The notes under the pieces are model-generated. The model was given only the letters and a program-made list of their open reading frames with translations. It was not told the origin of the DNA and searched no databases. From assembly GCA_964482325.1 (NCBI GenBank), contig CAYZXD010000001.1:3461-67460 (forward strand): a stretch of DNA of 64,000 nucleotides. The letters run 5' to 3'. Each line of letters starts with the position of its first letter. Within the stretch, counting starts at the first letter, position 1. Of the stretch, positions 28,078-42,880 are shown in pieces. Made by a program: the position numbers and the translations under genes. This stretch comes from an uncultured Spirochaetaceae bacterium (GTDB taxonomy: Bacteria > Spirochaetota > Spirochaetia > Sphaerochaetales > Sphaerochaetaceae).

Positions 28078-28908
28078 ATGGGTAACATCTTCATCTTGCT
28101 CATTCTCATGCTATTTATGACTGTGAATATATTTGCGGGTATGCCACCAGTCAGATATTGGACGCCGGATGGCACTGATGCGATTGTTCAAAGCATACCA
28201 AAACGAGCAGAGCCCAAAATCATTCCCATCCTCTATCATAATATTGTCTATGGCAGAACGGGTAACGTGTATAACCGGGATATCTACAATTTTGAGCAGG
28301 ATCTCAAGTTTTTTAAGAAGAATTTTACTATCATCACCTTTGACGATCTCATCAGTATCACCGAAGGGACCGTAGAGCTCAATACTGATGCAGTTATCAT
28401 CACCTTTGATGATGGGGACCTCTCCATGTACGCAATTGTCTACCCCCTGCTTGTTGAATATGATATTCCTGCCACATTCTTCATTGTTCCGAGCTTTGTC
28501 GGAAAAGTGGGTTATATGAGCTGGGAACAGATCAGAGCGATGGAAGGGTATCGTAATAAAAACGGAAAGAAGCTGTTTACTTTTGAGTCGCATTCTTTAA
28601 CGCATGCACCGCTAGGCGAGCTCTCTTATACGCAGATTCTGTATGAATTAGTTGAATCAAAACGTATAATAGAACAGGAAACGTTGCAGCCTGTTTCCGT
28701 TATTGCGTTGCCTTATGGAAGTGGAGCTCAGTCCGACCAGGTGCGCAAAGCTGTGCAACACAGTGGGTATCGCATGATTCGTACATCATTCCCTTCGGCT
28801 ATCTCTCCTGACTCGATAGATCTATACAACTTATCTGCTTTCAATGTTGAAAGTTACAGTACCGATACACTGATCAAAAATATTCAGCAGATCCTGAAGA
28901 GGAGATAA
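28078..28908 (+). CDS. Exported polysaccharide deacetylase (CE4, IcaB/PgaB-like)
   Basis: Signal peptide, IPILYH, ITFDDG, ATFFIV, FESHSLTH (D-H-H triad), ALPYG. Confidence 0.9.
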   Translation: MGNIFILLILMLFMTVNIFAGMPPVRYWTPDGTDAIVQSIPKRAEPKIIPILYHNIVYGRTGNVYNRDIYNFEQDLKFFKKNFTIITFDDLISITEGTVELNTDAVIITFDDGDLSMYAIVYPLLVEYDIPATFFIVPSFVGKVGYMSWEQIRAMEGYRNKNGKKLFTFESHSLTHAPLGELSYTQILYELVESKRIIEQETLQPVSVIALPYGSGAQSDQVRKAVQHSGYRMIRTSFPSAISPDSIDLYNLSAFNVESYSTDTLIKNIQQILKRR

Positions 28909-28912
28909 TCAT

Positions 28913-29671
28913 TTGAGCCAAGGACTTCGTGCAGCTATTGTATTTTTGTTGTTCTGCATGTGTGCCCCACTGTATAGTTCTCCTGTTATTCAGCGACCGG
29001 AGAATCAAAGTTCCCGCGAAATTGACTTTTGTGGGTTTACCTGGAGAGTAAAGTCGTCCATTGTACCTGTGGCACCAGGTCCAAATATCTATCGCGGAAC
29101 TGAAGATGCAGTTTTTGTAAGTGAAAGAGGTCTCCATCTCACTATCGGAAGAGACCAGGATCACTGGTATGCTACCGAAATATTCACAAGAAAACGAGTT
29201 GGTTATGGTACTTATACTTTCACGGTTGAAACCGATGCGCTCAACTACGATCCTTCCGTGGTAGCCGGGTTTTTCACCTGGGACAGCGAACCGGTAGAGT
29301 TCAATCGGGAGATCGATATCGAGTTTGCTTCATGGGGGAGTCACGACGGAATCAGGTTCCAGTACGTTGTGCAACCGTACAGTATACCGGAAAGAATCAC
29401 CGTTTTTGATCCAAAGCTTCAGGGAAGTGTATCCACCCATCGCATTATATGGCTCGCCGACTCCGTTGAATTTTTAAGTTATCATGGGGTAGTCGATCCC
29501 GATGATCCCGAAGCTGACACCATGCTGATGAATCAATGGAAATTTATCGGGGATGTCCCATCAGAAGGAAGAACCCGATTCAGAATCAACCTATGGTTGT
29601 TCCAAGGGAAAGAACCGGCAAAACAGACTGAAATGATCTTGCGATCTTTCAAGTTCGACCCTTTGCGTTAG
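28913..29671 (+). CDS. Exported glycoside hydrolase family 16
   Basis: Signal peptide, GYGTY, GFFTW, catalytic EIDIEF motif. Confidence 0.85.
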   Translation: MSQGLRAAIVFLLFCMCAPLYSSPVIQRPENQSSREIDFCGFTWRVKSSIVPVAPGPNIYRGTEDAVFVSERGLHLTIGRDQDHWYATEIFTRKRVGYGTYTFTVETDALNYDPSVVAGFFTWDSEPVEFNREIDIEFASWGSHDGIRFQYVVQPYSIPERITVFDPKLQGSVSTHRIIWLADSVEFLSYHGVVDPDDPEADTMLMNQWKFIGDVPSEGRTRFRINLWLFQGKEPAKQTEMILRSFKFDPLR

Positions 29672-32489
29672 AGACGAAACCCTTCCGGACTTGTGCTCCC
29701 CAACCCCGGTTGCTTCTCATGGCATTGAAGTAGGAACCTACACGCCATAGACTGATGTACTGACGGATGCCAAAATTTTCCGCTATAGCCATCCCAAGGA
29801 GTCTGAAGATATCACCGGTTCCATAAAGCTCATGATCTATTTCGTTCACCCAAATGGAAAAAACACTTACAAAGATTCCGAGAAGGACCGTCGAGCTAAA
29901 GAGTAATAATGCGATCGGCAGATTGAGTAAACCGAGCATTGCAGATAGTGCGACAAAGAAAAGGCCTTGAGCCTCAATGATTGGTCCCATGAACTCAAAA
30001 ATAAAATAATATGGCATACCGATCAGACCAAGCAGTCCATAACGGGGATTAGCAATCATTGAACTGTGAAACAGCATAATATCTATCAGACCGCGATGCC
30101 ACCTGTCCCGTTGTCGATGGAGGATCTTCCAAGATTCGGGAACCTCCGTCCAGCAATTTGCGTTATAGGCGTAATTGACGCGGTAGGGAATACGCAGATC
30201 TCTCATATGCCGCGTCAACCTGACTACCAGCTCCATGTCTTCACCCACCGTATCTTTTTGAAATTTCTCACTCTTGGTTAGGTATCCTCCAGTTTGTATA
30301 GTTCTTTTCCTGTTGAAGATTCCGAACGCACCACTGATGATCAGCAGAAGATTCATATGAGCCCATCCGACCCGTCCTGACATGAATGCTCGAATATATT
30401 CCAGCGATTGAAGCCGAGGAAGGAATTTTTTTGGAATAGAAATCGTGTCTAACGATCCCATCTCAACTTCACAACCATTCACCGGACAGATATTTCCTCC
30501 AGCGGCAATTACCTCACGCTCTGAATCAATCATGGTCGACACAGCTCTGAGTAACGCGTCCGATTCTAGGAGGGAGTCAGCGTCGATGCCGCAGAAATAA
30601 CTTTTTGAGGCTACATTCAATCCCAGATTGAGTGAATCAGCTTTTCCCCCATTCACTTTATCGACAACGATCAGATTCGGTATGTGTTTCGTGGTATACA
30701 CACCACGCATCGGACGGGTCTTCAGTGTGGAGTATACGATACTATCTCGTTTTTCCAGGTGGTAATAATCAATCAAATGCTTCAGTGTGTCATCTTTTGA
30801 TCCATCATTAACGACTATCAATTCAAAATTGGGATAACGCTGATTCAATAGGGAGTTGACGCTCTCTATGATGGTAGCAGCCTCATTGTACGCTGGGGCG
30901 ATGATAGAAATCGATGGAAGGAGATGCGGAGTGAACAACATGTGATCATCCTTGCTCTGCCACAATAGTGATTGTATGTGAGCTCCTCTAATCGAAATTC
31001 CTAGGATAATCAGATACACGACATTGATGAACACTGAGTAGAACGCGAACAAATAATTAAAACGGACCACAAACAGTCTTCCGATTTCAGGCCATGGCAA
31101 GTGAACAATCTCGGTGATTTCCCAGACAATCGTGATTATAGGTGGAATAAGAAGTATCAGAAGTAGGATGATAATCAGTCGTACCCGTTGAGGCTTTTCC
31201 GCATGAGGAGGAGGCAAGTCAGTCGTCCGGTCTCCATCGGTCACAAGCAGGATTTTTTGCAATCGTGTATCAAGATACTGCCTCATCTGTGATCTGAGTT
31301 GGGAATCTGTCTTGGCAAGAGGAGTAAACGTCATGATGATTGTGTTTTCGAGAGCAGAATTTTTGTTGCGATTGAGAAAAAAGAGTATTCCACTGGTTTG
31401 CTTAACATCGACAAGCCGTTTGATAAGATCAACAATTTCATCATGTAACGGCCCATTGATCTGCAGAAGAAAATAATCGATACGTTGGTTCAGTACGCGG
31501 GCGAGCAGCAGTTGTTCTTGTTTCACTTTGGTACGACGAAAATAGTCGAGTATATCAATCATGAGGGATGGTTTATGCATGGTCATCCTGATAAGAACTC
31601 TGACAATTTCTTCATGCAGTGCTTCATGCGAGGTATATGAGAGGATCGTGGCGATATTTGTGCGTGTTTGGCTCTTTCCATAGGCACGGAGAACAGCCCC
31701 CATCACATCACGATCCCGGCTTGTCGTAAAACGTCGATGCAACAGTTGTTCAGGAAAGTGTTTGAGAAGAGCTGTCAACGCAAGCTTTTGTACAGATTTA
31801 TTCTGGGAAAGTGCTTTTTCACGGATATAGTGAAGAAATTCTTTATGTGGATAGTCAGATACATAACTGCAGATAATTCGATGCATATACGTATGGGGAT
31901 TCTTTAATTGCTTCAGCAGGTAGGGCGCCAGCATGCTACCATACGTATTTAGAACAGCCTGTAACCGAATTGCCATGTGAGGTTTTGATCGTCTGATCTG
32001 TCTTACCAATAAAGGAATTGCTGGCCTTACGTGTTGGATAGACAAGGCTTGGCCAAGATACAAGGCCACTGTTGAATTGTGTTCATTCTTGAGTGCCTCC
32101 AGCAATGAAGCTTGGATATCATCTCGTTTGAGGTATCTCAGGCCAGCAGCAGATTCGATTCTTCGAAACCGTGAACGGGAGTGAAGTCCTCTCATCAAAT
32201 GCTCCGGGATGGAGCTGGACAAAATCCGATCCTGTAGTGGCTGTAACAGGTCTTTTGGAAGCGTGATAGTATTCTGGAGATGCTTATAAGAAGCAAATAG
32301 CGATTCAGGAGGTACATCTACTCCAATTGGACTGTTGGATAGCAGATGTTTTTCAATCAACGTATCAATTTCCTTCTGGCGCACATCGCGCATTCTTCTC
32401 AGGTATTTGGTTGCTATTGTAAGGCTTATCATCACGAGATCAAATATAAATATCGATAGGGTCAGTATAATCGCAAACTGCACTTGCAT
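29649..32489 (-). CDS. HEAT-repeat domain fused to a processive GT2 polysaccharide synthase
   Basis: N-terminal TM + HEAT-like helical repeats; APAYNE, VNDGS, GGKADSLN, IDADS (DxD), GEDMEL, QRDRW (QxxRW); C-terminal TMs. Confidence 0.92.
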   Translation of the reverse strand: MQVQFAIILTLSIFIFDLVMISLTIATKYLRRMRDVRQKEIDTLIEKHLLSNSPIGVDVPPESLFASYKHLQNTITLPKDLLQPLQDRILSSSIPEHLMRGLHSRSRFRRIESAAGLRYLKRDDIQASLLEALKNEHNSTVALYLGQALSIQHVRPAIPLLVRQIRRSKPHMAIRLQAVLNTYGSMLAPYLLKQLKNPHTYMHRIICSYVSDYPHKEFLHYIREKALSQNKSVQKLALTALLKHFPEQLLHRRFTTSRDRDVMGAVLRAYGKSQTRTNIATILSYTSHEALHEEIVRVLIRMTMHKPSLMIDILDYFRRTKVKQEQLLLARVLNQRIDYFLLQINGPLHDEIVDLIKRLVDVKQTSGILFFLNRNKNSALENTIIMTFTPLAKTDSQLRSQMRQYLDTRLQKILLVTDGDRTTDLPPPHAEKPQRVRLIIILLLILLIPPIITIVWEITEIVHLPWPEIGRLFVVRFNYLFAFYSVFINVVYLIILGISIRGAHIQSLLWQSKDDHMLFTPHLLPSISIIAPAYNEAATIIESVNSLLNQRYPNFELIVVNDGSKDDTLKHLIDYYHLEKRDSIVYSTLKTRPMRGVYTTKHIPNLIVVDKVNGGKADSLNLGLNVASKSYFCGIDADSLLESDALLRAVSTMIDSEREVIAAGGNICPVNGCEVEMGSLDTISIPKKFLPRLQSLEYIRAFMSGRVGWAHMNLLLIISGAFGIFNRKRTIQTGGYLTKSEKFQKDTVGEDMELVVRLTRHMRDLRIPYRVNYAYNANCWTEVPESWKILHRQRDRWHRGLIDIMLFHSSMIANPRYGLLGLIGMPYYFIFEFMGPIIEAQGLFFVALSAMLGLLNLPIALLLFSSTVLLGIFVSVFSIWVNEIDHELYGTGDIFRLLGMAIAENFGIRQYISLWRVGSYFNAMRSNRGWGAQVRKGFVSNAKGRT

Positions 32490-32490
32490 T

Positions 32491-34524
32491 TCAGTTCTCC
32501 TCTATCTGTATGCGTTTGGCAATCATCTTTACCACTCCGATCAGCTCAACAAGGAGTACAGGGCGAAGGAAGAAATGACTGATATTCATTTCAAGTGCTC
32601 TATTTACTGTATTTTCATTCTTCACTGCGCTCATGAGGAGAAATGGGATATTCCTTGTCTCAGGATTATTCAGCAACTCCTTACGAAGCGTGATAGCGTT
32701 GATCTTTTCCACCATAAGCTCACTTATGATGATGTCCGGGAGCTCCGTCTGAATCTGAAGTTTAGCTAACAGACCGTTATCCGCAATGAAGACCTGAAAC
32801 CCTTCACGTATCAATTCTTTCTTGATCAGTTCACGTCCCAGACCTGGCGGATCAATCAGCAGCACGGTATGGAGAGATTTTTCACCCAGGGGGACTATTG
32901 AGGAGGAAACTAGGATTCTTCCACCTCGTTTCTGAGCAAGTCGTAGTCTGAATTGAGTTGTCTGAACCATCACGGCTTTCAGTTGTTCTTCATCATTTTG
33001 CAGGGAATCAGGAAACTCATGGGAACAGAAAATACCTCCGGAAATGGTTATCGGGACTATGAATGCCTCAGAATCGGAAACTGTATGTATCAATTTCTCA
33101 ACTTCCTCAATCACGTCTGATCCTGCAAGATTCACCGTATAGAGACCAAAAACACTTCCAGCTAAACGAAATACTTTGCAGTCAAACGAAAGATGCCGTT
33201 CGATTATGAAGGTGAGATTCCTTAAGGTTGCATCCCCCTCAGAACTTCCGAAATCGATATTGATCTGAGCAAGATTGTCTACACTCAACATAACACAGCA
33301 GATACTTTGTTTTTCTGAAATCATCTGATGTATGATCTCAGTAATGAAGAGATTATGGACATTCTGATTGTAAAGGCCGGTAACTGCATCTCGAGAGAGG
33401 CTTTCCTGCAGTTCGTTCAACCGTAACTCCAAGCTTGATCGCTCCTTTTCCAAGTTATCAATTTGTATCGACTGCGAAGATATAATACTGCTTGCCTCAA
33501 ACGCCTGAGTTCTGAATACTTTCGGAAGAGGAATTGCATATGATTTACTGAGCATTTCAGCTGTCGGGGCAATGATCGTTATCCATTCGAGACCCTTTTT
33601 CTCTAATACCAAGTTGAAAAAGGTCTCCCAAATATCCTCATCTTGTGTCTTACATGAGGTCACTTCCCGTGTTGCATCATCGAACTGAAATGCAGAATCG
33701 TTGAACAATTGCTGGACATCGGTCAACGTGTAAGTTGCCAGATATCGTTTTACAATCTGGTTGCAAAGGGCAAGATACCCTCCCGCTTCCATGAGGTCTT
33801 TTTTTACGAGATCGAGGAATAGTCCACAAGAGAGATCCCTGAGAATCTCAATATGACGACGAGGATTCTTAGTGATAATTGAGCCATGTTGTGGACAAAT
33901 CATTGAAATATCATATTGAAGCAATGTATCCATAGTTGATTTAAGGATGGCATGAGAAGGCATGTAGGTCTCATGAAATGTCTTCATGGCTTCCTCATAA
34001 TCAGGACCGGCATAGAGATTCCACTGTTTGGTGACTGCACCGAAAACATCACCGGAGAGAAGGACCTTCTGTTGAGGAAGATAGGTCATGATTGCTCCGG
34101 GGAAATGGAGATAAGGAGTAAAAATAAACTCGATGGAGGACCCGTCGACCAACGGAAATCGATAATTTTGCAAATTCACGTGGTAGAATGATCTGTGTAC
34201 GCCATAATAGGAAATAATCAAGGATGCCCGAGTGTGACAGCAATACACCCCTTTGAACCCATGCTTTTCAAATAGCGGGAGAGAGGAACAGAGATCGGGA
34301 TCTTGATGGCTACAGACAATCGCATCAAGTTTTTGTATGGGAACAAGTTGTTGTACTTTGTGAGAAACAATTTCAAAATCAAGCACTGATCCGGCATCGA
34401 ACAGGATTGCACTCTTTCCCTGTAATAGAAGAAAGGGGTTGCATTGGAGATTCCTCTTTGTATCATTCACCCCAACCCACCAGAGCCCATCAGTTATCGG
34501 AATTGGATTGGTACTTTCTGTCAT
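32491..34524 (-). CDS. ODP-type di-iron (MBL-fold) sensor + degenerate GGDEF + atypical receiver
   Basis: SHQDPD, HFPG, SGDVFG, PQHG; coiled coil; DAVTGLYN...SVDNLAQINIDFGSSEGD with RLAGSVF in place of RxGGDEF; REC with ISELM (phospho-Asp replaced by Glu). Confidence 0.85.
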   Translation of the reverse strand: MTESTNPIPITDGLWWVGVNDTKRNLQCNPFLLLQGKSAILFDAGSVLDFEIVSHKVQQLVPIQKLDAIVCSHQDPDLCSSLPLFEKHGFKGVYCCHTRASLIISYYGVHRSFYHVNLQNYRFPLVDGSSIEFIFTPYLHFPGAIMTYLPQQKVLLSGDVFGAVTKQWNLYAGPDYEEAMKTFHETYMPSHAILKSTMDTLLQYDISMICPQHGSIITKNPRRHIEILRDLSCGLFLDLVKKDLMEAGGYLALCNQIVKRYLATYTLTDVQQLFNDSAFQFDDATREVTSCKTQDEDIWETFFNLVLEKKGLEWITIIAPTAEMLSKSYAIPLPKVFRTQAFEASSIISSQSIQIDNLEKERSSLELRLNELQESLSRDAVTGLYNQNVHNLFITEIIHQMISEKQSICCVMLSVDNLAQINIDFGSSEGDATLRNLTFIIERHLSFDCKVFRLAGSVFGLYTVNLAGSDVIEEVEKLIHTVSDSEAFIVPITISGGIFCSHEFPDSLQNDEEQLKAVMVQTTQFRLRLAQKRGGRILVSSSIVPLGEKSLHTVLLIDPPGLGRELIKKELIREGFQVFIADNGLLAKLQIQTELPDIIISELMVEKINAITLRKELLNNPETRNIPFLLMSAVKNENTVNRALEMNISHFFLRPVLLVELIGVVKMIAKRIQIEEN

Positions 34525-37500
34525 CTTTTCTCCTTGAAATATCTTTGTAATATGGAATAACTTTCCTTGATTCGTTCACGGTATCGTGGGTAGTTCCATG
34601 GTTGCCACGGTAGAAATCCAACTGATTCATCAGCCGCAGTACCAAAGTTCCCGACAACCTGCCGACTCTCTTTTTCTACCACGACTGCTGATACTCTGAT
34701 CCCTTCTGAGAGCTTCGTGTGCAACACATCACGAGGGGGATCGGTATTAAAAGTCCTGTCATCATCCAGAACTCGACCTGATGATGGATCTGAAACATTG
34801 ATCCTTCCCCAAGGTATCCTGAGAGTGATTGCAGATCCCGTATGCAACCAATGATTGGTTGCTCCCTCCTGATGCCCATAACGCAGTGAAGACGATTCTT
34901 CATACCGTGCAGGGATTGGAGTAAGATCCGGTAAAGCTCTGGCCCGATTGATGAGTTTATGCATGGAAACGAACAGGCCTCTTGATTCAAGTCCTTCATA
35001 GGAGGAAAAGCGATATTGAGTACTGTTAGCGGGGGGAATAGCGAGCAGTCTTGCCGTCGTTGTTCCATCAAGAACCACCATAAATTCCATACCAGAGAGA
35101 GATTGGAGGGCAATATCAGGCCCATAGCTTAACTCACCTCTGTCTCGAGCGTAGGTATCGATACCGATCATAACTGCATGCTTATCAAAATCGATAGAAT
35201 CAGCAAAATCCATATCAATGTGGAGGTATGATGCATCCAGAGAGAGTCCAACCGCACTGATCATGTTATTATTGAGTGTAATCAATGTACTTCGTCGTTC
35301 TGGTTTAACTGCTTCTAAAGCAAGGATGCCGTAGTTCTGTTCAGGGTCGATGGTATTGTGCCAGAGAATCTGTCGGTCATAGGGAATCATATACGGTTCT
35401 GTTGTCCAAGTCTTCTTTGCCCATTCATCCATCCATTCGAAGATGATGCCTCCGGCATATCCTTCCCTCCGCATTGCTTCAAACATTCTGATGATCCCAT
35501 ATCCCTGTTCCTGTTCGGTCATGGAGCCATGATGATATCCATCAGGATTTTCATGAGCATTGCCCATACCAGTTGCCAACCCGAATTCAGCTACAACTGC
35601 AGGATAAGCCTTATGGTCTTCCATGAATTCTCTCAGGTAACCCCCATACCGAAACCGTCCCCGGTCATCCTGATACTCATCGTACAAAGGATCATTGTTC
35701 ATAAAATCGGGGTAGTTCGGATAAATATGGTAGGCTCCGAAGATGCCGGTTTTCAATTTTTCACCTGGCAATATATTGTTGATGTTCACCGTGGTGTAAT
35801 CATTCATTTCGAATACTTTTTTCCCCTCTTCATTGCGTTCAGATGGATGATCGATGGGATCAAGTGTCGGCCAGTTTACTATCGCGACTGGATGTTGCCA
35901 TCCATAACGATTTTCTTCATAGGCAAGCGTGTAATCCATACTGGAGGCAAGCCATACCTCCGTAGGAGAGGCTTCAGGACGGGTAGTGATATAAGCTCCG
36001 CTGAAACGGACATTTGGGTTTTTTCGATCCGTCTCAAAAACTTCATGTGGTTCCAGTTCTCTTCCAACGAGATATCCCAAGACATAAGCGGATACGTCAC
36101 TCGTATAATTCCCCCAGGCTCTCCCTCGACGTTCCGGAATAACTGCATTACCATGAACAGCATCAATGACATGACGAATTTCCTGTTCAAATGCAACTTG
36201 ATAGCTCTCTTTTAAGTAATTCTCTTCTTCAGGATATTCCTCCGGCCAGATTTCCTGCATAAGATATAACTGGGTCGCTGGATTGAGCTGATTGTACAGC
36301 AGTAGAGCATCGTAGAACATGGGGTCGAGCAACGTATAGATTCGAATGGTATTCACGCCCAACTCCCCAATCTGTTCGAGCCACCGATAGTACAAGGACT
36401 TGTCTTGCGGGAAATCAGTGAACCACTTGCCCGGCATTGCTATACCGATATTTATTCCATGGATAAATAGATCTTCCCATTGATTATTACGCCAGGTCTG
36501 CAACCTCTTCCCTTCTGTTCGTGAAACCATCATAGTACCGTCAACTTGCGTAGAGGTACGAGTACTCTTTCTGATCGGGGTCTCTTTTCGTTCCCTTGTT
36601 TCTTTGGCAATCGACTGCATCAACGGAAGATACAGATGCCAAAAAAAGCTCTTTTCATTTTCGATGGAATTGGGTATCGCTGTACGCATCACCGATGAAA
36701 GCCCGGCGAGGTAGGGGAAGTTTATTGGGCGTGAGCTGAAGGCCCAGTTGCCGGCAAGATAATAGGTGCTGTGGTAGGCTGTTTCCCCTCGAATAATTGC
36801 AGGAAATGTAGGACTCAGTCCGACCTCTTTAAGCATCTGTTCGCCTTTTTCATGTACGTCCAAGGTGTATGTGGCTAGTACTTCAGCCCCTGAAAGCGGT
36901 TCTACAATATCGAACTGTATGGGTACTTGATATATACCGGAAAGACCGAGAGCAGTCTCTCCTTCTGGAGTAAAAGCGAACTGATTTGCCAGAGGACCAA
37001 TTTCCTTGCCCATGGTTAAAACTAAAAAATCATCATCCGTATTGAAGAGGACAAATCCGCTTCCTGTATAGTTCCAGATTGCTCCCGATTTTTTTTCATA
37101 CTCATCAGGTATCCAGGAGGGCACATCACCCGATCTTGAAAGATCAATAACATAGGTTCCTGTCCAGCCAGTCCACCGGGAACGGAACATCTCATAGAGC
37201 TGGGTCTGAATATAGGGTGGCGTAGGAGTGGCGAATGTATTGTATTCAGCGATGATGGTATTCGGCATGTCCCGGTTCAAAAAAGCTCTCAGGGTATCAA
37301 CATCTTCCTGCTTCATCCCTCCATATAGCAGATTGCTGCCAACCTGGTCGGATTGCCCACGAATGAACCCCTCTCCTTCACGATAGACCCCGTATGTATC
37401 GGAGATATAGACGATATCCAGATCATCAGGAAGTGGTCCCAGTGGTACTATATCGCTGTCCCCGGAAGGTAGGAGATGCCGCCCCCTGTAGGAAATCGGC

Positions 37501-37790
37501 ATCTGGTGTCGTACTCCCGATTCGTTAAACATCTTCGAGTGATGTAAAAACCATGCAAGACCTGCATGATGTTGAACCGGCAATGCAGGGACTGTCTTGG
37601 TGTAAACCAATAGGGAAACAGGAACAGTGGGTGTAATCACCCAGATCACAAATGGTGATATCAATAGCAGGAACACTAGTACTGCTATAATAATGAGAGG
37701 ATTCTTTTGATATTCACCGGGAGTGGTTAATTTATCCCCTTTTTTCTTTCGCATATACAAACAGTATAAATTAGTCTTATCTCCTTTCAT
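34521..37790 (-). CDS. 1089-aa membrane-anchored protein: N-terminal extracytoplasmic domain + clan GH-A-like TIM-barrel glycoside hydrolase
   Basis: Single N-terminal TM; GINIG, GVNTIRIYT, GRELEP, VVAEFG, GGIIFEWMDEWAK; ATGA overlap with the next gene; start uncertain (37790 or 37754). Confidence 0.75.
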   Translation of the reverse strand: MKGDKTNLYCLYMRKKKGDKLTTPGEYQKNPLIIIAVLVFLLLISPFVIWVITPTVPVSLLVYTKTVPALPVQHHAGLAWFLHHSKMFNESGVRHQMPISYRGRHLLPSGDSDIVPLGPLPDDLDIVYISDTYGVYREGEGFIRGQSDQVGSNLLYGGMKQEDVDTLRAFLNRDMPNTIIAEYNTFATPTPPYIQTQLYEMFRSRWTGWTGTYVIDLSRSGDVPSWIPDEYEKKSGAIWNYTGSGFVLFNTDDDFLVLTMGKEIGPLANQFAFTPEGETALGLSGIYQVPIQFDIVEPLSGAEVLATYTLDVHEKGEQMLKEVGLSPTFPAIIRGETAYHSTYYLAGNWAFSSRPINFPYLAGLSSVMRTAIPNSIENEKSFFWHLYLPLMQSIAKETRERKETPIRKSTRTSTQVDGTMMVSRTEGKRLQTWRNNQWEDLFIHGINIGIAMPGKWFTDFPQDKSLYYRWLEQIGELGVNTIRIYTLLDPMFYDALLLYNQLNPATQLYLMQEIWPEEYPEEENYLKESYQVAFEQEIRHVIDAVHGNAVIPERRGRAWGNYTSDVSAYVLGYLVGRELEPHEVFETDRKNPNVRFSGAYITTRPEASPTEVWLASSMDYTLAYEENRYGWQHPVAIVNWPTLDPIDHPSERNEEGKKVFEMNDYTTVNINNILPGEKLKTGIFGAYHIYPNYPDFMNNDPLYDEYQDDRGRFRYGGYLREFMEDHKAYPAVVAEFGLATGMGNAHENPDGYHHGSMTEQEQGYGIIRMFEAMRREGYAGGIIFEWMDEWAKKTWTTEPYMIPYDRQILWHNTIDPEQNYGILALEAVKPERRSTLITLNNNMISAVGLSLDASYLHIDMDFADSIDFDKHAVMIGIDTYARDRGELSYGPDIALQSLSGMEFMVVLDGTTTARLLAIPPANSTQYRFSSYEGLESRGLFVSMHKLINRARALPDLTPIPARYEESSSLRYGHQEGATNHWLHTGSAITLRIPWGRINVSDPSSGRVLDDDRTFNTDPPRDVLHTKLSEGIRVSAVVVEKESRQVVGNFGTAADESVGFLPWQPWNYPRYRERIKESYSILQRYFKEKR

Positions 37791-38114: not shown

Positions 38115-39143
38115 CTACAACAAATAAATTTCTTTATCGATGAACAGATCGACAAGTTGTGGATCAAATTGTTTTCCGGAACAGAGTTTGAGTTCCTCTA
38201 TGGCCAGTTCTGTGGGCAATGCTGAACGATAAGCCCGATTACTCGTCATCGCATCATAAGCATCAGCAAGTGCCACAATTCTTACATCAAGAGGAATCTC
38301 AGAGCCTTTCAGTCCGTCGGGGTATCCTTTTCCATCCATTCGCTCATGGTGGCTTCGTATGATCGGACGATATTCCTGGAACAGATCAATATGTCCGATG
38401 ATTCTCTCTCCGGAAATCGGATGCATATGGATAATTTCCATCTCTTCATCGGTGAGTTTTCCCTTCTTGTTCAGAATTTCCTCTGAAATACCGACCTTCC
38501 CGATGTCGTGAAGCAATGCACCCCCTTCAAGGATAGACAGGTGCTCTTCCGAGAAGTTCAGAGCCTTTCCTAAAGCGATAGCGATGTTGCGTACCCGATG
38601 ACAATGTCCTTTTGTGTAAGAATCTTTTTGCTCGATGGTTTCAGAAAAAGCTTCCAATGTGGCACGAGTGGTATTCTTCAGAGCGGATAAGGCCTGTCTG
38701 AGATTACTCTCCAATGTTTTTTGGTAATCGCGGTTTTGTGCCAGTGAAGCCAACTGTTCCCGATGAACCACCGATTTGGAGAGTGTCCGATCGACGCAAT
38801 CGAGTAGCGTCTCACGTTTTACCGGTTTCGTCAGATAATCTGAAGCTCCCGCTCTGATTGCTTTCATCCCGGTATCCAGGTCATTAAATGCGGTCAGCAT
38901 TACTACCGGAAGAGCGGGGTGATGTTGCTGTATCATCTCAAGCACATCAAATCCTGAGGGACCAGGCATCTTAATATCAAGGAGTACCAGATCTACATGA
39001 TTTCCCTCTGTAGCAAGGACTTCTTTCAACTCATATCCATTTTGACAGGGAGTGACATCATAGCCCTGCTTAGTCAGAAAGAGCTGCAGGACCTTTCGTA
39101 TTGCCGGGTCGTCATCTGTCGTCACGATATGTCTGTTCATCAT
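38115..39143 (-). CDS. REC-HD-GYP response regulator (RpfG-like c-di-GMP phosphodiesterase)
   Basis: Intact receiver (DDD, LLDIKMPG, MLTA, LTKP); GHCHRV, HDVGK, HHERMDGKGYP, ADAYDAMTS. Confidence 0.93.
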   Translation of the reverse strand: MMNRHIVTTDDDPAIRKVLQLFLTKQGYDVTPCQNGYELKEVLATEGNHVDLVLLDIKMPGPSGFDVLEMIQQHHPALPVVMLTAFNDLDTGMKAIRAGASDYLTKPVKRETLLDCVDRTLSKSVVHREQLASLAQNRDYQKTLESNLRQALSALKNTTRATLEAFSETIEQKDSYTKGHCHRVRNIAIALGKALNFSEEHLSILEGGALLHDIGKVGISEEILNKKGKLTDEEMEIIHMHPISGERIIGHIDLFQEYRPIIRSHHERMDGKGYPDGLKGSEIPLDVRIVALADAYDAMTSNRAYRSALPTELAIEELKLCSGKQFDPQLVDLFIDKEIYLL

Positions 39144-39676
39144 TCATTTCTCCATAGACGCCTACTGAACGACAGCACTAATGGTGTGTGTTGTTTATAT
39201 TTGTCGTATCCGGCAAAAATTTTTGGAAAGATAATGATGTCTTCAAGCATGACCAGTACAAAATTACACAGAATCAGACCCAAACACAGCAAAGTAATTC
39301 CCACATCCCAAAAGAATACTGCTACCAGCAGGTTAACGATAGTATACCAGAGAAAGCCCGGATGTCGAGAAAAACTATAGGTCCCTTGTGTATACAATTG
39401 ACCGGAACGCGATGAAAAAAGGGCTGTCTCGATAAAAACTGAATAGATAAGGAGGATGACGAAACATCCGATTATCACCAATAATCCCAAAGAAAAGAGA
39501 GTTTTATGGGGAGAACGATAGGAATAAAAGAGGAAGATATAAGGAACTGCAGTAAGGAAAAAGCCTAGAGAAAAAAGCTTTTTCATGAATGATTTGTCGT
39601 ACAATATCGCAATATCATACATCCCTACTAATAAATATCCTGCTAATCCAAGCATAAATAGTTTGAAATTTTCCAT
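39140..39676 (-). CDS. ICMT/PEMT-family membrane methyltransferase
   Basis: About 5 TM; LYTQGTYSFSRHPG and ED...F...Y..Y...TP family motifs; overlaps the HD-GYP start. Confidence 0.78.
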   Translation of the reverse strand: MENFKLFMLGLAGYLLVGMYDIAILYDKSFMKKLFSLGFFLTAVPYIFLFYSYRSPHKTLFSLGLLVIIGCFVILLIYSVFIETALFSSRSGQLYTQGTYSFSRHPGFLWYTIVNLLVAVFFWDVGITLLCLGLILCNFVLVMLEDIIIFPKIFAGYDKYKQHTPLVLSFSRRLWRNE

Positions 39677-39733
39677 TGCCTGCATAATAATAATACAAGT
39701 TATATACATTTGAAAAGTGTAAAAGGATAGCTC

Positions 39734-42700
39734 ATGATCATCGACATTTCGACCATTATTCCTGCTGTGGCCTTCATACTTTATGTATCGTTTGCAGTAT
39801 TCGGTTTTTCGCAGTACAAGAAGGACCGGTTCTATTGGTCATTCCAGCTTTATATGGTGCTTTTCTCCATTTGGAGTTTTGGTTCCATGATGATGCACCT
39901 CAACAGTGGAATCCTTACTCCCTTGTTCTGGAACAAAGTGATGCTGGTAGGGTTGTTATCTGCCTCGTTTGCATTGAGCAACTTTATCCTCGACATTCTG
40001 AATCTTCACACTAAACCGATAAGACGATTTATCTATGCGAGTTATCTCCTGATTATTCCCCTGACTTATCTTAATGTGACCGGCTACATCGTCCATGACG
40101 CAGGGTTTCGTCCCGATGGATCATTCTTCTATGAGTTGGGTCCCGGAGCAATCTTTGCCTATTCAATAACGTACGTCTATTTGATTTTTACTCTGATCAT
40201 GCTGCTGTTTCGTACGAAATATCGTCCCCTGAAAGAGGAGCATAAGAATCTGATTCTTCCGCTGGTTGGTGTGTTGATTATGCTGATCGGAATATTCATC
40301 AATGTATATCCTCCTCTGGGTAAATATCCGGTTGATATCTTTACTGCTACGATCAATGCGGTCCTGTTGTTCTACACCATCTACAAATTCAAGCTGATAA
40401 ACTATTCACTATTGGCCTTGAAAATCATTTATTCTACCTTTCTCGCGATCGCTGCGTCCATTTCATATTATGTGATCATTGTTTTCTTACGCATATTCAA
40501 TCCGGCCTTTGTTCCCGGTGATGCATTCCAATTCTCTTTTGTGCTCGGAATTGCCACCGTCATCGTGATACAACCCCTGAGGAACCTGTTTTCCTATCTT
40601 GTAGACAACGTAATCATTCCAAGAAGGCACCCCTACCAGACAACCATCAAGAAACTGAGCAAACGATTGACGACTATCGTAAATCTCAGAGAACTCGGCG
40701 AAGAGGTTGTGAGTAATCTGAGTACCGGTCTGAAAACAGAATGGGTGCTTTTTGTTGCCAAGAGAAGCAATACAGCCGATGCTTTTACCTTGATTGCCAA
40801 TAGTAACTGTCCTACAGAATTACGTATTGGGCAAGAGGTTGTATTTGCCTTTTCCAATCAGGTCAACGATAGGTTGCAGCGTTTGCAACGGGAAAATATT
40901 TCTTCAATTCTGAGTGTAAAACCTGATGAACCCCGATTTGAAGTGAGTGACCAGTTGCCTGAAGTCGATGTATTGATTCCCCTTGTTTTTCGGGAACAGA
41001 TAGCAGGGTATATCGTCATTGGATTTGATCGTACCAAGAGCCTCATAACATCAGTCGAAATGGAAGCGCTGGAAATATTAGCTTCCCAGAGTTCTCTCTC
41101 ATTGGAGAACGCGCTCTCCTTCGAAAAGTTGCGGATACAGGGTGACGAATTGACTATGAGTAAGAACAAATTAGAAGCAATCTTCAATGGTATCGCTTCT
41201 CCCGTGTGTCTGATCGATATCGATTATTCTATCCAGGAAGCCAATACCGCTGCAGTAAATCTTTTTGGAAACAATAGAAAAGAGCTTATTGGAAAAAAAT
41301 GTTATCGTGAATTTTTTCATCGTGCCAAGCCATGTCGCTACTGTCAGGCAATGGAATGTCTCCATTCCGGTATTGTGCAGGAGACAGAAGTGGAAGTTTC
41401 TGACAGCATCTACTCGTTCCAGTTCCATAATGTACGGGTCCCGGAAAATTCCAAAAGTGTGTTTATTGAGATTATTCACGATATCACCGAACAAAAGAAT
41501 TTCCAGGAAGAATTGGTAAGAACCGAGAAAATGGCAAGTGTCGGTACCCTTGTAGCGGGAATTGCACATGAATTGAACAATCCTCTTGCTGGGATTTATG
41601 GTACCGCTGAAGTCATGCTCACCGAAGTTGAGGAAGCACATCCGCACCATGAATATCTCACAGATATTCTCAGTTATGCAAAAACTGCCGCAGATGTAAT
41701 ACAGGAATTGACCACATACTCCCGCAAGAAAGAGTTGACTGAAGTGCAACAGGTCGACCTGATTAAGGTGCTGGAGTTCTCCCTGAGGCTTGCAATGCGT
41801 GGCGTTGACTCCTCCGGCATTGAAGTAAAACGGAATTATCATGCACTTCCGGTGTTGGAGGCGAATGAAGGAAGTCTGCAACAGTTATTTCTCAATTTGA
41901 TTGTGAATGCCATACAGGCGATGGAAGGGGAGGGAACCTTGACCCTTACCTGCTTTGAAAAGGATGAGTTCGTCCATATTAAAATCGGAGATACCGGCTG
42001 TGGTATTTCAGAGAAAAATCTCAACCAGATATTTACTCCATTTTTTACCACAAAAGCTCCTGGAAAAGGCACCGGATTAGGCTTATCCAATTGCTATGGC
42101 ATCGTAGAAAAAATGGGCGGCCGTATCAGAGTGCGCAGTGAAGTTGATGTCGGTTCTGAGTTCTCCACGATATTCCCTCTGAGCGATGAAGGACGGGATG
42201 TGATCCGGTTCGTTCTGGTAAATGATCAGGTTGGTATGAACGATGTCTTTTTTCTCCAGCGTAAAGTACTCGTAGGAGAGAAGGGGTATATGGAGGAGAC
42301 CATTCATCGGGCCGAAGATGAAAAGGCTACGCATATTCTGGCATTTAAAGGGCTGCACCCAGTGGGGACCGTTTCTCTGATGACCTCTGATACCTGTTGG
42401 CCGCTTCCCATTTCACGTTACTTTAACATTGATTCGGTTCTGCATTCGAAAAAGTGTTCCGAATTTATTCGTTTGGCCGTCCTGCCCGAGATGCGCAATA
42501 CCTCGGTATCTCTTGGTCTGATCGTACTCGTATTCCTTCTTGCACGAAGCAGAGGAGTGGAGGACATGATCATCGATGTGTTTGCCGATGACAAAAAGAC
42601 CATCAAACTATATAAAAAATTCGGTTTCAGAGAAGTCGGCACCTATTATTCTCCTTCGGCGGTTACCGTATTGGCTTTGCAGGAAAAAACTACCATGGAA

Positions 42701-42880
42701 GGTGATAAGAGTCAGTTGCGTCACTTTGTGCGTCCATTATTCAAACGGCTCAAGCCCCTGTTCGATTTTGGCAAGGATACCCAGGGAGTCTTAGATGAAA
42801 TGGATAAGATTTTAAGTATCGATACCGATTATGTTGCAAAAGATCAAACTGATTCCGATGAAGAATTTGAAGTTAGTTGA
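39734..42880 (+). CDS. 7TM-GAF-PAS histidine kinase fused to a C-terminal GNAT (N-acyl amino acid synthase/LuxI-fold) domain
   Basis: HisKA_7TM-like N-terminus, GAF, PAS, AHELNNPL H-box, NLIVNA, DTGCG, FFTTK.PGKGTGLG; then FFLQRKV..GEKGY...VGTVSL...SEFIRLAV...LYKKFGF. Confidence 0.88.
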   Translation: MIIDISTIIPAVAFILYVSFAVFGFSQYKKDRFYWSFQLYMVLFSIWSFGSMMMHLNSGILTPLFWNKVMLVGLLSASFALSNFILDILNLHTKPIRRFIYASYLLIIPLTYLNVTGYIVHDAGFRPDGSFFYELGPGAIFAYSITYVYLIFTLIMLLFRTKYRPLKEEHKNLILPLVGVLIMLIGIFINVYPPLGKYPVDIFTATINAVLLFYTIYKFKLINYSLLALKIIYSTFLAIAASISYYVIIVFLRIFNPAFVPGDAFQFSFVLGIATVIVIQPLRNLFSYLVDNVIIPRRHPYQTTIKKLSKRLTTIVNLRELGEEVVSNLSTGLKTEWVLFVAKRSNTADAFTLIANSNCPTELRIGQEVVFAFSNQVNDRLQRLQRENISSILSVKPDEPRFEVSDQLPEVDVLIPLVFREQIAGYIVIGFDRTKSLITSVEMEALEILASQSSLSLENALSFEKLRIQGDELTMSKNKLEAIFNGIASPVCLIDIDYSIQEANTAAVNLFGNNRKELIGKKCYREFFHRAKPCRYCQAMECLHSGIVQETEVEVSDSIYSFQFHNVRVPENSKSVFIEIIHDITEQKNFQEELVRTEKMASVGTLVAGIAHELNNPLAGIYGTAEVMLTEVEEAHPHHEYLTDILSYAKTAADVIQELTTYSRKKELTEVQQVDLIKVLEFSLRLAMRGVDSSGIEVKRNYHALPVLEANEGSLQQLFLNLIVNAIQAMEGEGTLTLTCFEKDEFVHIKIGDTGCGISEKNLNQIFTPFFTTKAPGKGTGLGLSNCYGIVEKMGGRIRVRSEVDVGSEFSTIFPLSDEGRDVIRFVLVNDQVGMNDVFFLQRKVLVGEKGYMEETIHRAEDEKATHILAFKGLHPVGTVSLMTSDTCWPLPISRYFNIDSVLHSKKCSEFIRLAVLPEMRNTSVSLGLIVLVFLLARSRGVEDMIIDVFADDKKTIKLYKKFGFREVGTYYSPSAVTVLALQEKTTMEGDKSQLRHFVRPLFKRLKPLFDFGKDTQGVLDEMDKILSIDTDYVAKDQTDSDEEFEVS

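What the first reader, a model, noticed from the sequence alone, without database searches (positions are those of the whole stretch)
39734..42880. Histidine kinase carrying its own signal-synthase-like acyltransferase domain
Seen: a complete 7TM(+)-GAF-PAS-HisKA-HATPase followed in the same frame by about 200 aa of GNAT fold. Its pattern (F.L.R.V...E.GY; GT.SL; P+..YF; E..RLAV) fits FeeM-type N-acyl amino acid synthases and the LuxI fold better than small-molecule acetyltransferases. Known: such synthases use acyl-ACP, some occur with PEP-CTERM/EPS loci, and PrsK-type kinases share the TM-GAF-HK layout. Inference: sensor and signal or lipid synthase in one polypeptide, where a receiver domain would normally be. 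I know no characterised example.
Basis: partly seen in the sequence, partly recalled or inferred. Interest (0 to 1): 0.86.

Follow-up and report, generated by a model that had tools for sequence, protein, structure and literature searches.

The report
Sensor kinase fused to FeeM-like acyltransferase
A Sphaerochaeta-family spirochaete encodes a membrane sensor kinase that ends in a conserved lipid-type (FeeM-like) acyltransferase domain and always sits beside a membrane methyltransferase-like gene and a c-di-GMP-degrading regulator, so it is probably an undescribed circuit in which a sensor and the enzyme that makes a fatty small molecule are one protein, although no product has been shown.

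Summary
Window 39734-42880 (+) is one uninterrupted 1048-aa ORF: HisKA_7TM, a GAF-like domain, PAS, HisKA, HATPase_c, then a roughly 200-aa GNAT domain about 7 residues after the ATPase.

It is not a chimera. 86 protein clusters share the architecture. 37 of 151 sampled genomes of the family carry it as a single copy, and it occurs in at least four Spirochaetota families.

The GNAT domain's best Pfam match is FeeM (PF21926, 40-43 bits, cut-off 27). It shares FeeM's insertion and conserved Glu, and its CoA P-loop is degenerate. However, its closest solved structure and PDB sequence match is the uncharacterised small GNAT SACOL1063. It matches neither the LuxI Pfam family nor TIGR03694.

Context supports a coupled enzyme-sensor system:
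- A REC-HD-GYP regulator is divergently adjacent in 8 of 9 loci.
- An ICMT-like membrane methyltransferase co-occurs with the fusion in 35 of 35 assessable genomes of the family.
- The nearest unfused relatives lie in trios of FeeM-like gene, SAM methyltransferase and HisKA_7TM kinase, or are fused to REC, PilZ or cNMP-binding domains.

Best reading (about 0.5): a signal-controlled N-acyltransferase that makes a probably methylated acyl compound, coupled to c-di-GMP turnover. Substrates and product are unknown. I found no published characterisation.

The parts
39734..42880 (+). Whole 1048-aa ORF (P0001): membrane sensor histidine kinase with a C-terminal FeeM-like GNAT domain
   Evidence: 86 orthologous clusters with the same architecture
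39770..40627 (+). HisKA_7TM membrane sensor region (Pfam residues 13-223) plus 1-2 further membrane helices, to about residue 298
   Evidence: E 3e-11; hydropathy; helices in the model
40685..41143 (+). GAF-like alpha/beta domain (residues about 318-470)
   Evidence: weak Pfam GAF_3/GAF_2 hits; GAF hits in orthologues; model secondary structure and pLDDT
41165..41497 (+). PAS domain (residues 478-588). It contains a conserved Cys/His cluster (C523, C534, C537, C541, H544) at 41300-41365.
   Evidence: invariant columns
41543..41731 (+). HisKA dimerisation/phospho-acceptor domain. The phospho-acceptor H612 is at 41567-41569.
   Evidence: H612, N615, N616 and P617 invariant
41867..42184 (+). HATPase_c catalytic domain (residues 712-817) with intact N, G1, F and G2 boxes
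   Evidence: E 3e-24; invariant columns
42206..42823 (+). FeeM-like GNAT acyltransferase domain (residues 825-1030; Pfam FeeM core 850-970 = 42281-42643), followed by two C-terminal helices
   Evidence: (pLDDT 88.7)
42461..42463 (+). Invariant Glu910 in 'SEFIRLAV'. It aligns with the Glu of FeeM 'LAEVVQFAM' and is a candidate catalytic base.
   Evidence: The catalytic role in FeeM is from my own knowledge of Van Wagoner & Clardy 2006; that paper could not be read here.
42494..42511 (+). Degenerate CoA P-loop 'RNTSVS' in place of the canonical R/Q-x-x-G-x-G/A
   Evidence: significance from PMC11685415
39140..39709 (-). ICMT/PEMT-like polytopic membrane methyltransferase-like gene (189-aa ORF; the true start is probably M12 at 39676). 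Conserved motifs are GTYSxSRHPGFLW and IED..FP..F..Y..YK.
   Evidence: ICMT 22.7 bits, below the cut-off of 24; orthologue alignment; co-occurrence in 35 of 35 genomes
38115..39143 (-). REC-HD-GYP response regulator (342 aa; HHERMDGKGYP motif). It is the probable cognate partner and a c-di-GMP phosphodiesterase.
   Evidence: adjacent and divergent in 8 of 9 loci

Best explanation
P0001 is a bifunctional membrane protein.

Its 7TM/GAF/PAS sensor kinase part is an active histidine kinase. It phosphorylates the divergently encoded REC-HD-GYP regulator and so controls c-di-GMP breakdown. This step is inferred from adjacency and intact motifs.

Its C-terminal domain is a catalytically competent FeeM-type N-acyltransferase held at the membrane about 7 residues after the ATPase domain. 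It probably transfers a fatty or other acyl group, from acyl-ACP or from non-canonically bound acyl-CoA, onto an amine acceptor such as an amino acid. The neighbouring ICMT-like membrane methyltransferase probably then methylates the product. Both steps are inferred.

Because relatives of this acyltransferase are fused behind REC, PilZ or cNMP-binding domains, I read the enzyme as a signal-controlled output. Because unfused relatives are encoded next to a methyltransferase and a HisKA_7TM kinase, I read the product and the 7TM sensor as functionally linked. The most likely link is that the lipid-like product or its precursor is what the kinase senses or regulates, as in a maker-and-sensor loop.
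For: Shown here:
- Intact single ORF with all kinase boxes invariant.
- FeeM is the best Pfam family, above its cut-off.
- Confident GNAT model with FeeM and LuxI-type synthases among the top structural matches.
- FeeM-type insertion and Glu910 conserved; the P-loop has lost both glycines in all fused members; literature on the P-loop.
- The GNAT region is the most conserved stretch of the protein.
- Single copy and always fused in 37 of 151 sampled genomes of the family, and present in 4 families of the phylum.
- REC-HD-GYP adjacent in 8 of 9 loci, down to about 40% identity.
- ICMT-like gene present in 35 of 35 assessable fusion-bearing genomes and in none of the 114 sampled genomes that lack the fusion.
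- Of the 7 nearest non-kinase relatives examined, 5 lie directly next to an orthologous class I SAM methyltransferase. Four of those also lie next to a HisKA_7TM gene, and a fifth lies next to a kinase C-terminus plus a REC gene.
- REC-FeeM, PilZ-FeeM and FeeM-cNMP fusions exist.
Against: - No biochemical data exist for any member.
- The closest solved structure and PDB sequence match is SACOL1063/YjcF, small GNATs of unknown substrate.
- No acyl carrier protein, fatty-acid or amino-acid gene is linked to the cassette.
- The ICMT-like gene is missing from 4 of 9 cassette loci outside the family and from the most distant orthologue. Its Pfam score is just under the cut-off.
- The class I methyltransferase of the unfused trios has no orthologue in this genome.
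- The full-length model has pTM 0.40, so nothing can be said about contacts between the kinase and the GNAT domain.
Confidence: 0.5

Rival explanations
1. The GNAT domain makes a membrane aminolipid (OlsB/GlsB-like N-acylation of an amino acid). The sensor adjusts envelope lipid composition, and the product is a structural lipid rather than a signal.
For: More distant FeeM-like relatives in the same phylum are paired with a PlsC-type acyltransferase, the OlsA/OlsB-like arrangement (L027). The Leptospira-size-genome relative also hits Acetyltransf_5, the OlsB-type family. The enzyme is tethered at the membrane.
Against: No PlsC-type O-acyltransferase is linked to the cassette. The window's domain has no PF13444 hit. 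The recurrent pairing with methyltransferases, 7TM kinases and second-messenger domains looks regulatory.
Confidence: 0.2
2. The GNAT domain is a protein acetyl- or acyl-transferase. It modifies a lysine of the kinase itself, of the REC-HD-GYP partner or of another protein, as a second layer of control. Comparable cases are cAMP-regulated mycobacterial KATs and PixB of Myxococcus.
For: Signalling-domain-GNAT fusions with a presumed regulatory role exist (PixB, PMC8316039). The best structural match is a small GNAT of unknown substrate, and N-terminal acetyltransferases (RimI, Naa30/50) are also among the hits. The tight 7-residue tether puts the enzyme next to the kinase core.
Against: The best Pfam family is FeeM rather than a protein acetyltransferase family. 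The domain has the FeeM-type insertion and a degenerate CoA P-loop. The strict co-occurrence with a lipid-type membrane methyltransferase is not explained.
Confidence: 0.15
3. The GNAT domain is a non-catalytic ligand-binding module that senses acyl-CoA or acyl-ACP (metabolic state). It feeds that information into the kinase as a cytoplasmic input domain.
For: The degenerate P-loop could reflect loss of catalysis. Sensor kinases often carry cytoplasmic ligand-binding domains.
Against: The candidate catalytic Glu910 is invariant, the motif-B Tyr960 is at least 90% conserved, and the acceptor-side helix 'QRKVLVGEKGY' is almost invariant over orthologues down to 35% identity. Input domains normally lie N-terminal to the kinase core. 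In relatives the same domain follows REC or PilZ, the position of an output domain.
Confidence: 0.12
4. The fusion is an assembly or gene-calling artefact.
For: None found. The genome is a 137-contig draft.
Against: The same continuous ~1045-1060-aa frame occurs in 86 protein clusters from independent assemblies, including single-contig complete genomes.
Confidence: 0.01

Closest known systems
FeeM and type I N-acyl amino acid synthases (Pfam PF21926; PDB 2G0B)
   Same: Best Pfam family, above its cut-off. GNAT fold with the extra segment 'GLP.D..Y ... AE..QFA' between the central strands, and a conserved Glu. Non-canonical P-loop.
   Different: Only about 17-20% identity to FeeM. It is fused to a sensor kinase instead of standing alone next to an ACP (FeeL). 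The donor, acceptor and product are unknown.
SACOL1063 (PDB 5JPH/5JQ4) and B. subtilis YjcF (1Q2Y), ElaA-type small GNATs
   Same: Best PDB sequence-profile match (E 3e-15) and best Foldseek match (TM 0.88 on the target). They share the N-terminal 'F.IR.KVFV.EQG' helix.
   Different: They lack the roughly 17-residue FeeM-type insertion. They keep the canonical RGQGMG CoA loop, are 140-146 aa stand-alone proteins, and have no established substrate.
LuxI-type acyl-homoserine-lactone synthases (BjaI 5W8A, MesI 6WNS, EsaI 1KZF)
   Same: Similar fold over the longest stretch of the query (TMq 0.60-0.62). The concept is the same: an acyl-signal synthase paired with a receptor.
   Different: No match to the LuxI Pfam family at E <= 10. 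The SAM-binding residues were not examined. The receptor here would be a membrane kinase rather than a LuxR.
RpfC/RpfG/RpfF (DSF) and PhcB/PhcS (3-OH fatty acid methyl ester) systems
   Same: In both, a fatty-acid-derived signal is read by a membrane histidine kinase. RpfG has the same REC-HD-GYP architecture as the neighbour gene here. PhcB shows a methyltransferase making a lipid signal next to its sensor kinase.
   Different: The synthase is a GNAT, not a crotonase (RpfF). Here the synthase is covalently fused to the kinase. This is analogy only; no homology of the enzyme parts was tested.
PrsK / TIGR03694 acyltransferase of PEP-CTERM-exosortase systems
   Same: PrsK shares the HisKA_7TM-GAF-kinase layout. 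A FeeM-like N-acyl amino acid synthase family is associated with those loci (from my own knowledge of the TIGRFAMs description).
   Different: P0001 scores 96.7 bits against a PrsK cut-off of 300, and only over the kinase core. The GNAT domain has no TIGR03694 hit. The genome has no exosortase.
PixB of Myxococcus xanthus (PilZ-PilZ-GNAT; PMC8316039)
   Same: A GNAT enzyme fused to a signalling domain and linked to c-di-GMP. Its substrate is likewise unknown.
   Different: It carries a different signalling domain and is soluble. I did not test whether PixB's GNAT belongs to the FeeM-like clade.

Membership tests
FeeM-type N-acyl amino acid synthase (PF21926) | Matches the family model above the curated cut-off | tested here: met
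   40.2 bits for the whole protein and 42.8 bits for the domain alone, against a cut-off of 27
FeeM-type N-acyl amino acid synthase (PF21926) | GNAT fold resembling FeeM | tested here: met
   Foldseek against 2g0b chains: E 2-5e-7, probability 1.0, TMq 0.53-0.58. SACOL1063 matches at least as well.
FeeM-type N-acyl amino acid synthase (PF21926) | Insertion between the central strands with an 'LP' motif, and a conserved Glu before the 'xxR/Q(L/F)A' strand | tested here: met
   The FeeM segment 'GLPMDSIY...LAEVVQFAM' aligns to relative P0103, which aligns to the window's 'PLPISRYF...CSEFIRLAV'. E910 is invariant.
FeeM-type N-acyl amino acid synthase (PF21926) | Non-canonical P-loop, as in carrier-protein-dependent GNATs | tested here: met
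   RNTSVS or RGSIVP in all 18 fused members aligned. Criterion taken from PMC11685415.
FeeM-type N-acyl amino acid synthase (PF21926) | Uses acyl-ACP and produces an N-acyl amino acid | not testable with these tools
   Needs an enzyme assay or LC-MS
LuxI-type AHL synthase (PF00765) | Matches the family model | tested here: not met
   No Autoind_synth hit at E <= 10 for the isolated domain. There is fold similarity only.
TIGR03694 exosortase-associated N-acyl amino acid synthase | Matches the NCBIfam model and lies in a genome with PEP-CTERM/exosortase | tested here: not met
   No hit at E <= 10. No Exosortase_EpsH match in the genome.
PrsK (TIGR02916) | Scores above the equivalog cut-off over the full length | tested here: not met
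   96.7 bits against a cut-off of 300, covering only residues 588-815
Active class I histidine kinase (HisKA/HATPase_c) | Phospho-acceptor His and N, G1, F and G2 boxes | tested here: met
   H612, N721/N725, DxGxG 753-757, F770 and GxG 781-783 are invariant in 31 orthologues
Hybrid histidine kinase | C-terminal receiver domain | tested here: not met
   No Response_reg hit. The GNAT domain occupies that position.
RpfG-type REC-HD-GYP regulator (neighbour gene) | Receiver domain plus HD and HHExxDGxGYP motifs | tested here: met
   Response_reg E 2e-29 and HD_5 E 1e-35. 'LLHDIGK' and 'HHERMDGKGYP' are present.
ICMT/PEMT membrane methyltransferase (neighbour gene) | Matches the family model; RHPxY/F and C-terminal acidic motifs | tested here: inconclusive
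   ICMT 22.7 bits against a cut-off of 24; PEMT 17 bits. The motifs SRHPGFLW and IED..FP..F..Y..YK are conserved in 5 orthologues.

The most novel reading that the evidence does not exclude
The Sphaerochaeta cassette and the unfused trios (FeeM-like acyltransferase, methyltransferase, HisKA_7TM kinase) found in other uncultured lineages would be one undescribed class of lipid-signal systems. The acyltransferase and methyltransferase would make an N-acyl amino-acid methyl ester or a similar methylated acyl compound. The 7TM domain of the kinase would be its receptor. In spirochaetes the maker and the receptor would have become one polypeptide that drives c-di-GMP hydrolysis through an RpfG-like regulator, i.e. 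an autoinducer loop with synthase and sensor fused.
Probability: 0.25. Interest if true: 0.85.

Novelty: new variant of a known kind. Interest (0 to 1): 0.64.

Why it matters
No ligand is known for HisKA_7TM sensor kinases, and no sensor kinase carrying its own FeeM-like acyltransferase has been characterised. Here the fusion acts as a Rosetta stone. It ties a defined enzyme clade to a defined sensor class and to c-di-GMP turnover. That gives a directly testable route to a 7TM-kinase ligand and possibly to a new family of bacterial acyl signals. Cultured Sphaerochaeta species carry the gene, so the test is feasible. It also adds to a pattern of N-acyltransferases placed under the control of REC, PilZ, cNMP-binding and kinase domains.

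Tried and rejected
- Assembly chimera: rejected.
- LuxI membership, TIGR03694 membership and a PrsK/PEP-CTERM context: rejected.
- An orthologue in this genome of the class I methyltransferase seen in the unfused trios: only a generic SAM-motif hit at E 3e-6.
- Conservation of the adjacent EPS-type operon with the cassette: the 1089-aa neighbour has no counterpart in the 9 other loci, so that adjacency is local.
- The search for related loci with alignments A1 and A3 failed because no stretch was conserved enough. I therefore could not get organism names for the unfused relatives.
- The listing of cluster members gave no taxonomy.
- The search for homologous proteins with P0103 found only 3 clusters.
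- The FeeM structure paper could not be read, so the catalytic role of the Glu rests on my own knowledge.
- The full-length AlphaFold model has pTM 0.40, so I drew no inference on domain packing.
Full report
**1. The observation**

Window 39734-42880 (+) is one ORF of 1048 codons with no interruption.

Pfam places the following domains:
- HisKA_7TM at residues 13-223
- PAS at 478-588
- HisKA at 604-666
- HATPase_c at 712-817
- FeeM (PF21926) at 850-970, scoring 40.2 bits against a cut-off of 27
- The generic GNAT family Acetyltransf_1, second at 26.9 bits

GAF is only a weak partial hit in this protein (E 0.027). Distant orthologues carry recorded GAF hits. The full-length AlphaFold model shows a confident alpha/beta domain at residues 318-470. 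Hydropathy and the model give 8-9 membrane helices up to about residue 298.

The GNAT domain starts about 7 residues after the ATPase domain. There is no receiver domain.

**2. Is the fusion real?**

A search restricted to the C-terminal 224 residues, with candidate lengths judged on the whole protein, returned 86 clusters. All have the same domain list and nearly all are 1020-1060 aa. Where named, they come from Sphaerochaeta, Sphaerochaetaceae, 'Spirochaetales' and Alkalispirochaeta assemblies, including contigs of 2.8-4.4 Mb.

In an even sample of 151 genomes of the window's family, 37 carry the domain. Each has exactly one copy, in an open frame of about 1045-1060 aa unless cut by a contig end. 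The carriers fall in 7 of 30 genera, those with the larger genomes.

In a sample of 401 genomes of the phylum, the fused form (E about 1e-80 to 1e-91) occurs in four families.

The genome of the window has a single FeeM-type domain. An assembly chimera is excluded.

**3. Is the GNAT domain under constraint?**

Across 79 full-length orthologues, the most conserved 40-residue block of the whole protein is residues 841-880, the start of the GNAT domain (0.87). Across 31 orthologues down to 35% identity, the following are invariant:
- Q842, K844, G848-E849-K850, Y852
- E910, R913-L914-A915-V916, R921
- D948, G964-F965

The kinase boxes are invariant as well: H612, N721/N725, D753/G755/G757, F770, G781/G783. 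Both halves look functional.

**4. What kind of GNAT is it?**

*Sequence families.* FeeM is the best Pfam family for the isolated domain (42.8 bits). There is no hit to the LuxI family. NCBIfam gives only weak generic GNAT hits and nothing for TIGR03694.

*Solved structures by sequence.* With a 25-sequence profile, the best match is SACOL1063 (E 3e-15), then YjcF (1e-10). FeeM follows at 2.5e-4 and the CoA-dependent LuxI enzyme BjaI at 8e-3.

*Fold.* The domain model is confident (pLDDT 88.7, pTM 0.84). Foldseek ranks the matches as follows:
- SACOL1063 first (TM 0.88 on the 142-aa target)
- BjaI next (TMq 0.60-0.62, the longest coverage)
- FeeM (TMq 0.53-0.58)
- MesI and EsaI

*Discriminating details.* HMMER aligns SACOL1063 to relative P0103 with a 17-residue gap, and to the family profile with a similar one, exactly where this family has 'WPLPISRYFNIDSVLHSKKCSE'. 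FeeM has the same segment ('GLPMDSIYAVELAAWRGEGKKLAE'), and it aligns with the relatives of the window's domain, ending in the conserved Glu. That Glu is E910 here and is invariant.

The canonical CoA P-loop (R/Q-x-x-G-x-G/A; RGQGMG in SACOL1063) reads RNTSVS here. In the distant fused orthologues it reads RGSIVP. A recent structural paper reports that distinctive P-loop sequence and conformation are shared by SbzI and FeeM and suggests they typify carrier-protein-dependent GNATs (PMC11685415).

My conclusion is that the domain belongs to the FeeM-like branch of the ElaA/FeeM/LuxI-like GNATs. It is not a LuxI or TIGR03694 member. Its donor (acyl-ACP or acyl-CoA), acceptor and product cannot be read from sequence.

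**5. Gene context of the fusion**

Two genes are transcribed divergently from the kinase.

The first is a 189-aa polytopic protein with a near-threshold ICMT/PEMT match (22.7 bits against 24). It carries the motifs SRHPGFLW and IED..FP..F..Y..YK.

The second, overlapping it by 4 bases, is a 342-aa REC-HD-GYP regulator with LLHDIGK and HHERMDGKGYP.

The regulator is adjacent and divergent in 8 of 9 orthologous loci, including four families at about 40% identity. The exception is the most distant orthologue (35%), which instead has a DAGK_cat lipid-kinase-like gene starting 2 bases after its stop.

The ICMT-like gene is present in 5 of the 10 cassette loci examined, counting the window.

Within the window's own family the phylogenetic profile is strict:
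- 35 of the 151 sampled genomes have the ICMT-like gene.
- All 35 are fusion carriers. In every locus where I compared coordinates, the gene lies about 3 kb away on the same contig; in G032 and G093 it is on a different contig.
- The two carriers without it have the locus cut by a contig end.
- None of the 114 non-carriers has it.

The downstream genes (RpiR, FAD oxidase, ETF) and the upstream EPS-type operon are not conserved with the cassette.

**6. Relatives of the acyltransferase outside the fusion**

An exhaustive HMMER scan of 1.84 billion representatives found only 82 proteins at E <= 1e-3. This is a small clade. Apart from fragments of the kinase fusion, the nearest relatives are 180-200-aa stand-alone proteins and fusions: REC-FeeM (P0102, P0171, P0172), PilZ-FeeM (P0106), and proteins with unknown N-terminal extensions (P0111, P0116).

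I looked up the loci of seven of them:

| Relative | Locus content |
|---|---|
| P0103 | FeeM-like, then class I SAM methyltransferase (overlapping), then HisKA_7TM-GAF kinase |
| P0111 | Four tandem HisKA_7TM kinases, a FadL/Toluene_X porin, then FeeM-like, methyltransferase, HisKA_7TM |
| P0102 | REC-FeeM, then methyltransferase, then HisKA_7TM |
| P0101 | Methyltransferase, then FeeM-like, then a 7TM fragment |
| P0116 | Kinase C-terminus, then REC, then FeeM-like, then methyltransferase |
| P0096 | Next to a protein with an adenylate/guanylate cyclase domain |
| P0100 | Uninformative |

The five methyltransferases are orthologues of each other (28-56% identity). They have no orthologue in the window's genome.

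Further away in the same phylum there are two more arrangements:
- A PlsC-acyltransferase plus FeeM-like pair, resembling OlsA/OlsB.
- A FeeM-cNMP-binding fusion in a genus with 4-Mb genomes.

**7. Reading**

Three independent lines converge.
- The enzyme clade recurs next to, or fused to, HisKA_7TM kinases.
- It recurs with a methyltransferase: class I when unfused, ICMT-like in Sphaerochaetaceae. That looks like a non-orthologous replacement.
- It recurs behind REC, PilZ or cNMP-binding domains, the position of a regulated output.

I therefore favour a signal-controlled N-acyltransferase whose product is probably methylated and is functionally tied to the 7TM sensor. The two-component output is c-di-GMP hydrolysis by the RpfG-like neighbour.

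The chemistry is inferred, not shown. ICMT enzymes methylate the free carboxylate of a lipidated amino acid. An N-acyl amino acid is such a molecule. PhcB/PhcS and RpfF/RpfC/RpfG show that fatty-acid-derived signals read by membrane kinases exist.

The rivals remain open because no assay exists: a structural aminolipid, a protein acyltransferase, or a non-catalytic acyl-thioester sensor.

**8. Novelty**

Full-text searches returned nothing on this architecture. The term sets were: histidine kinase + FeeM + GNAT; histidine kinase + acetyltransferase domain + Sphaerochaeta; HisKA_7TM; N-acyl amino acid synthase + PEP-CTERM + histidine kinase; response regulator + output domain + GNAT + acyltransferase.

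Public annotation calls the protein 'GNAT family N-acetyltransferase' or 'PAS domain S-box protein'.

Earlier notes of this scan on other Sphaerochaeta genomes and on unfused trios reached similar readings. I treated them as leads and re-derived the context evidence here.

I class this as a new variant of known kinds (sensor kinase; FeeM-like acyltransferase). There is a 0.25 chance that it represents a new class of lipid-signal circuit.

Noticed in passing
window 41300-41365 (P0001 residues 523-544): The PAS domain carries a Cys/His cluster, 'KCYREFFHRAKPCRYCQAMECLH'. K522, C523, Y524, C534 and C537 are invariant and H544 is at least 90% conserved in 31 orthologues. This may be a metal or Fe-S (redox/O2) site and so a second sensory input.
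   Followed up: no
window 39676-39709: The ICMT-like ORF as listed starts at 39709, only 24 bp from the kinase start codon. Orthologues begin at the equivalent of M12 (MENFKLF), so the real start is probably 39676. That leaves a 57-bp AT-rich divergent promoter region.
   Followed up: partly
window 28078-37790 (-): The REC-HD-GYP gene is followed on the same strand, after a 325-bp AT-rich gap, by a large operon headed by a 1089-aa protein with no Pfam or NCBIfam hit. Other first-reader notes call this an EPS system with a degenerate GGDEF receptor. The adjacency is not conserved in the 9 other cassette loci examined.
   Followed up: partly
L019 1-8522: An uncultured genome has four tandem paralogous HisKA_7TM kinases (460-485 aa). 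They are followed by a FadL/Toluene_X outer-membrane channel, a FeeM-like gene, a methyltransferase and a fifth HisKA_7TM gene. This looks like an expanded sensor array around one enzyme pair.
   Followed up: partly
L028 7728-8903 (-): [quoted passage not shown] A class I methyltransferase and SpoIIE/anti-sigma-type genes lie nearby.
   Followed up: partly
L027 7204-8681: A PlsC-type acyltransferase is immediately followed by a stand-alone FeeM-like gene in another spirochaete family. This is an OlsA/OlsB-like pair that may make an aminolipid.
   Followed up: no
L001 9179-10240: The most distant kinase-GNAT orthologue (35% identity) lacks the HD-GYP and ICMT-like neighbours. Instead a DAGK_cat lipid-kinase-like gene starts 2 bases after its stop codon, and ExbB/ExbD genes lie upstream.
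   Followed up: no
G087:C1:2600350-2600985 and protein P0033: In the complete 3.6-Mb genome that matches Sphaerochaeta pleomorpha in size, the open frame is only 822 aa, and the public protein is 776 aa without the 7TM hit. In that species the membrane sensor part may be truncated or interrupted.
   Followed up: no
G000 contigs C59, C8, C1: The genome has three further HisKA_7TM proteins (415-540 aa open frames). Two of them match the Pfam model much more strongly (149-172 bits) than the fusion protein does (48.6 bits).
   Followed up: no
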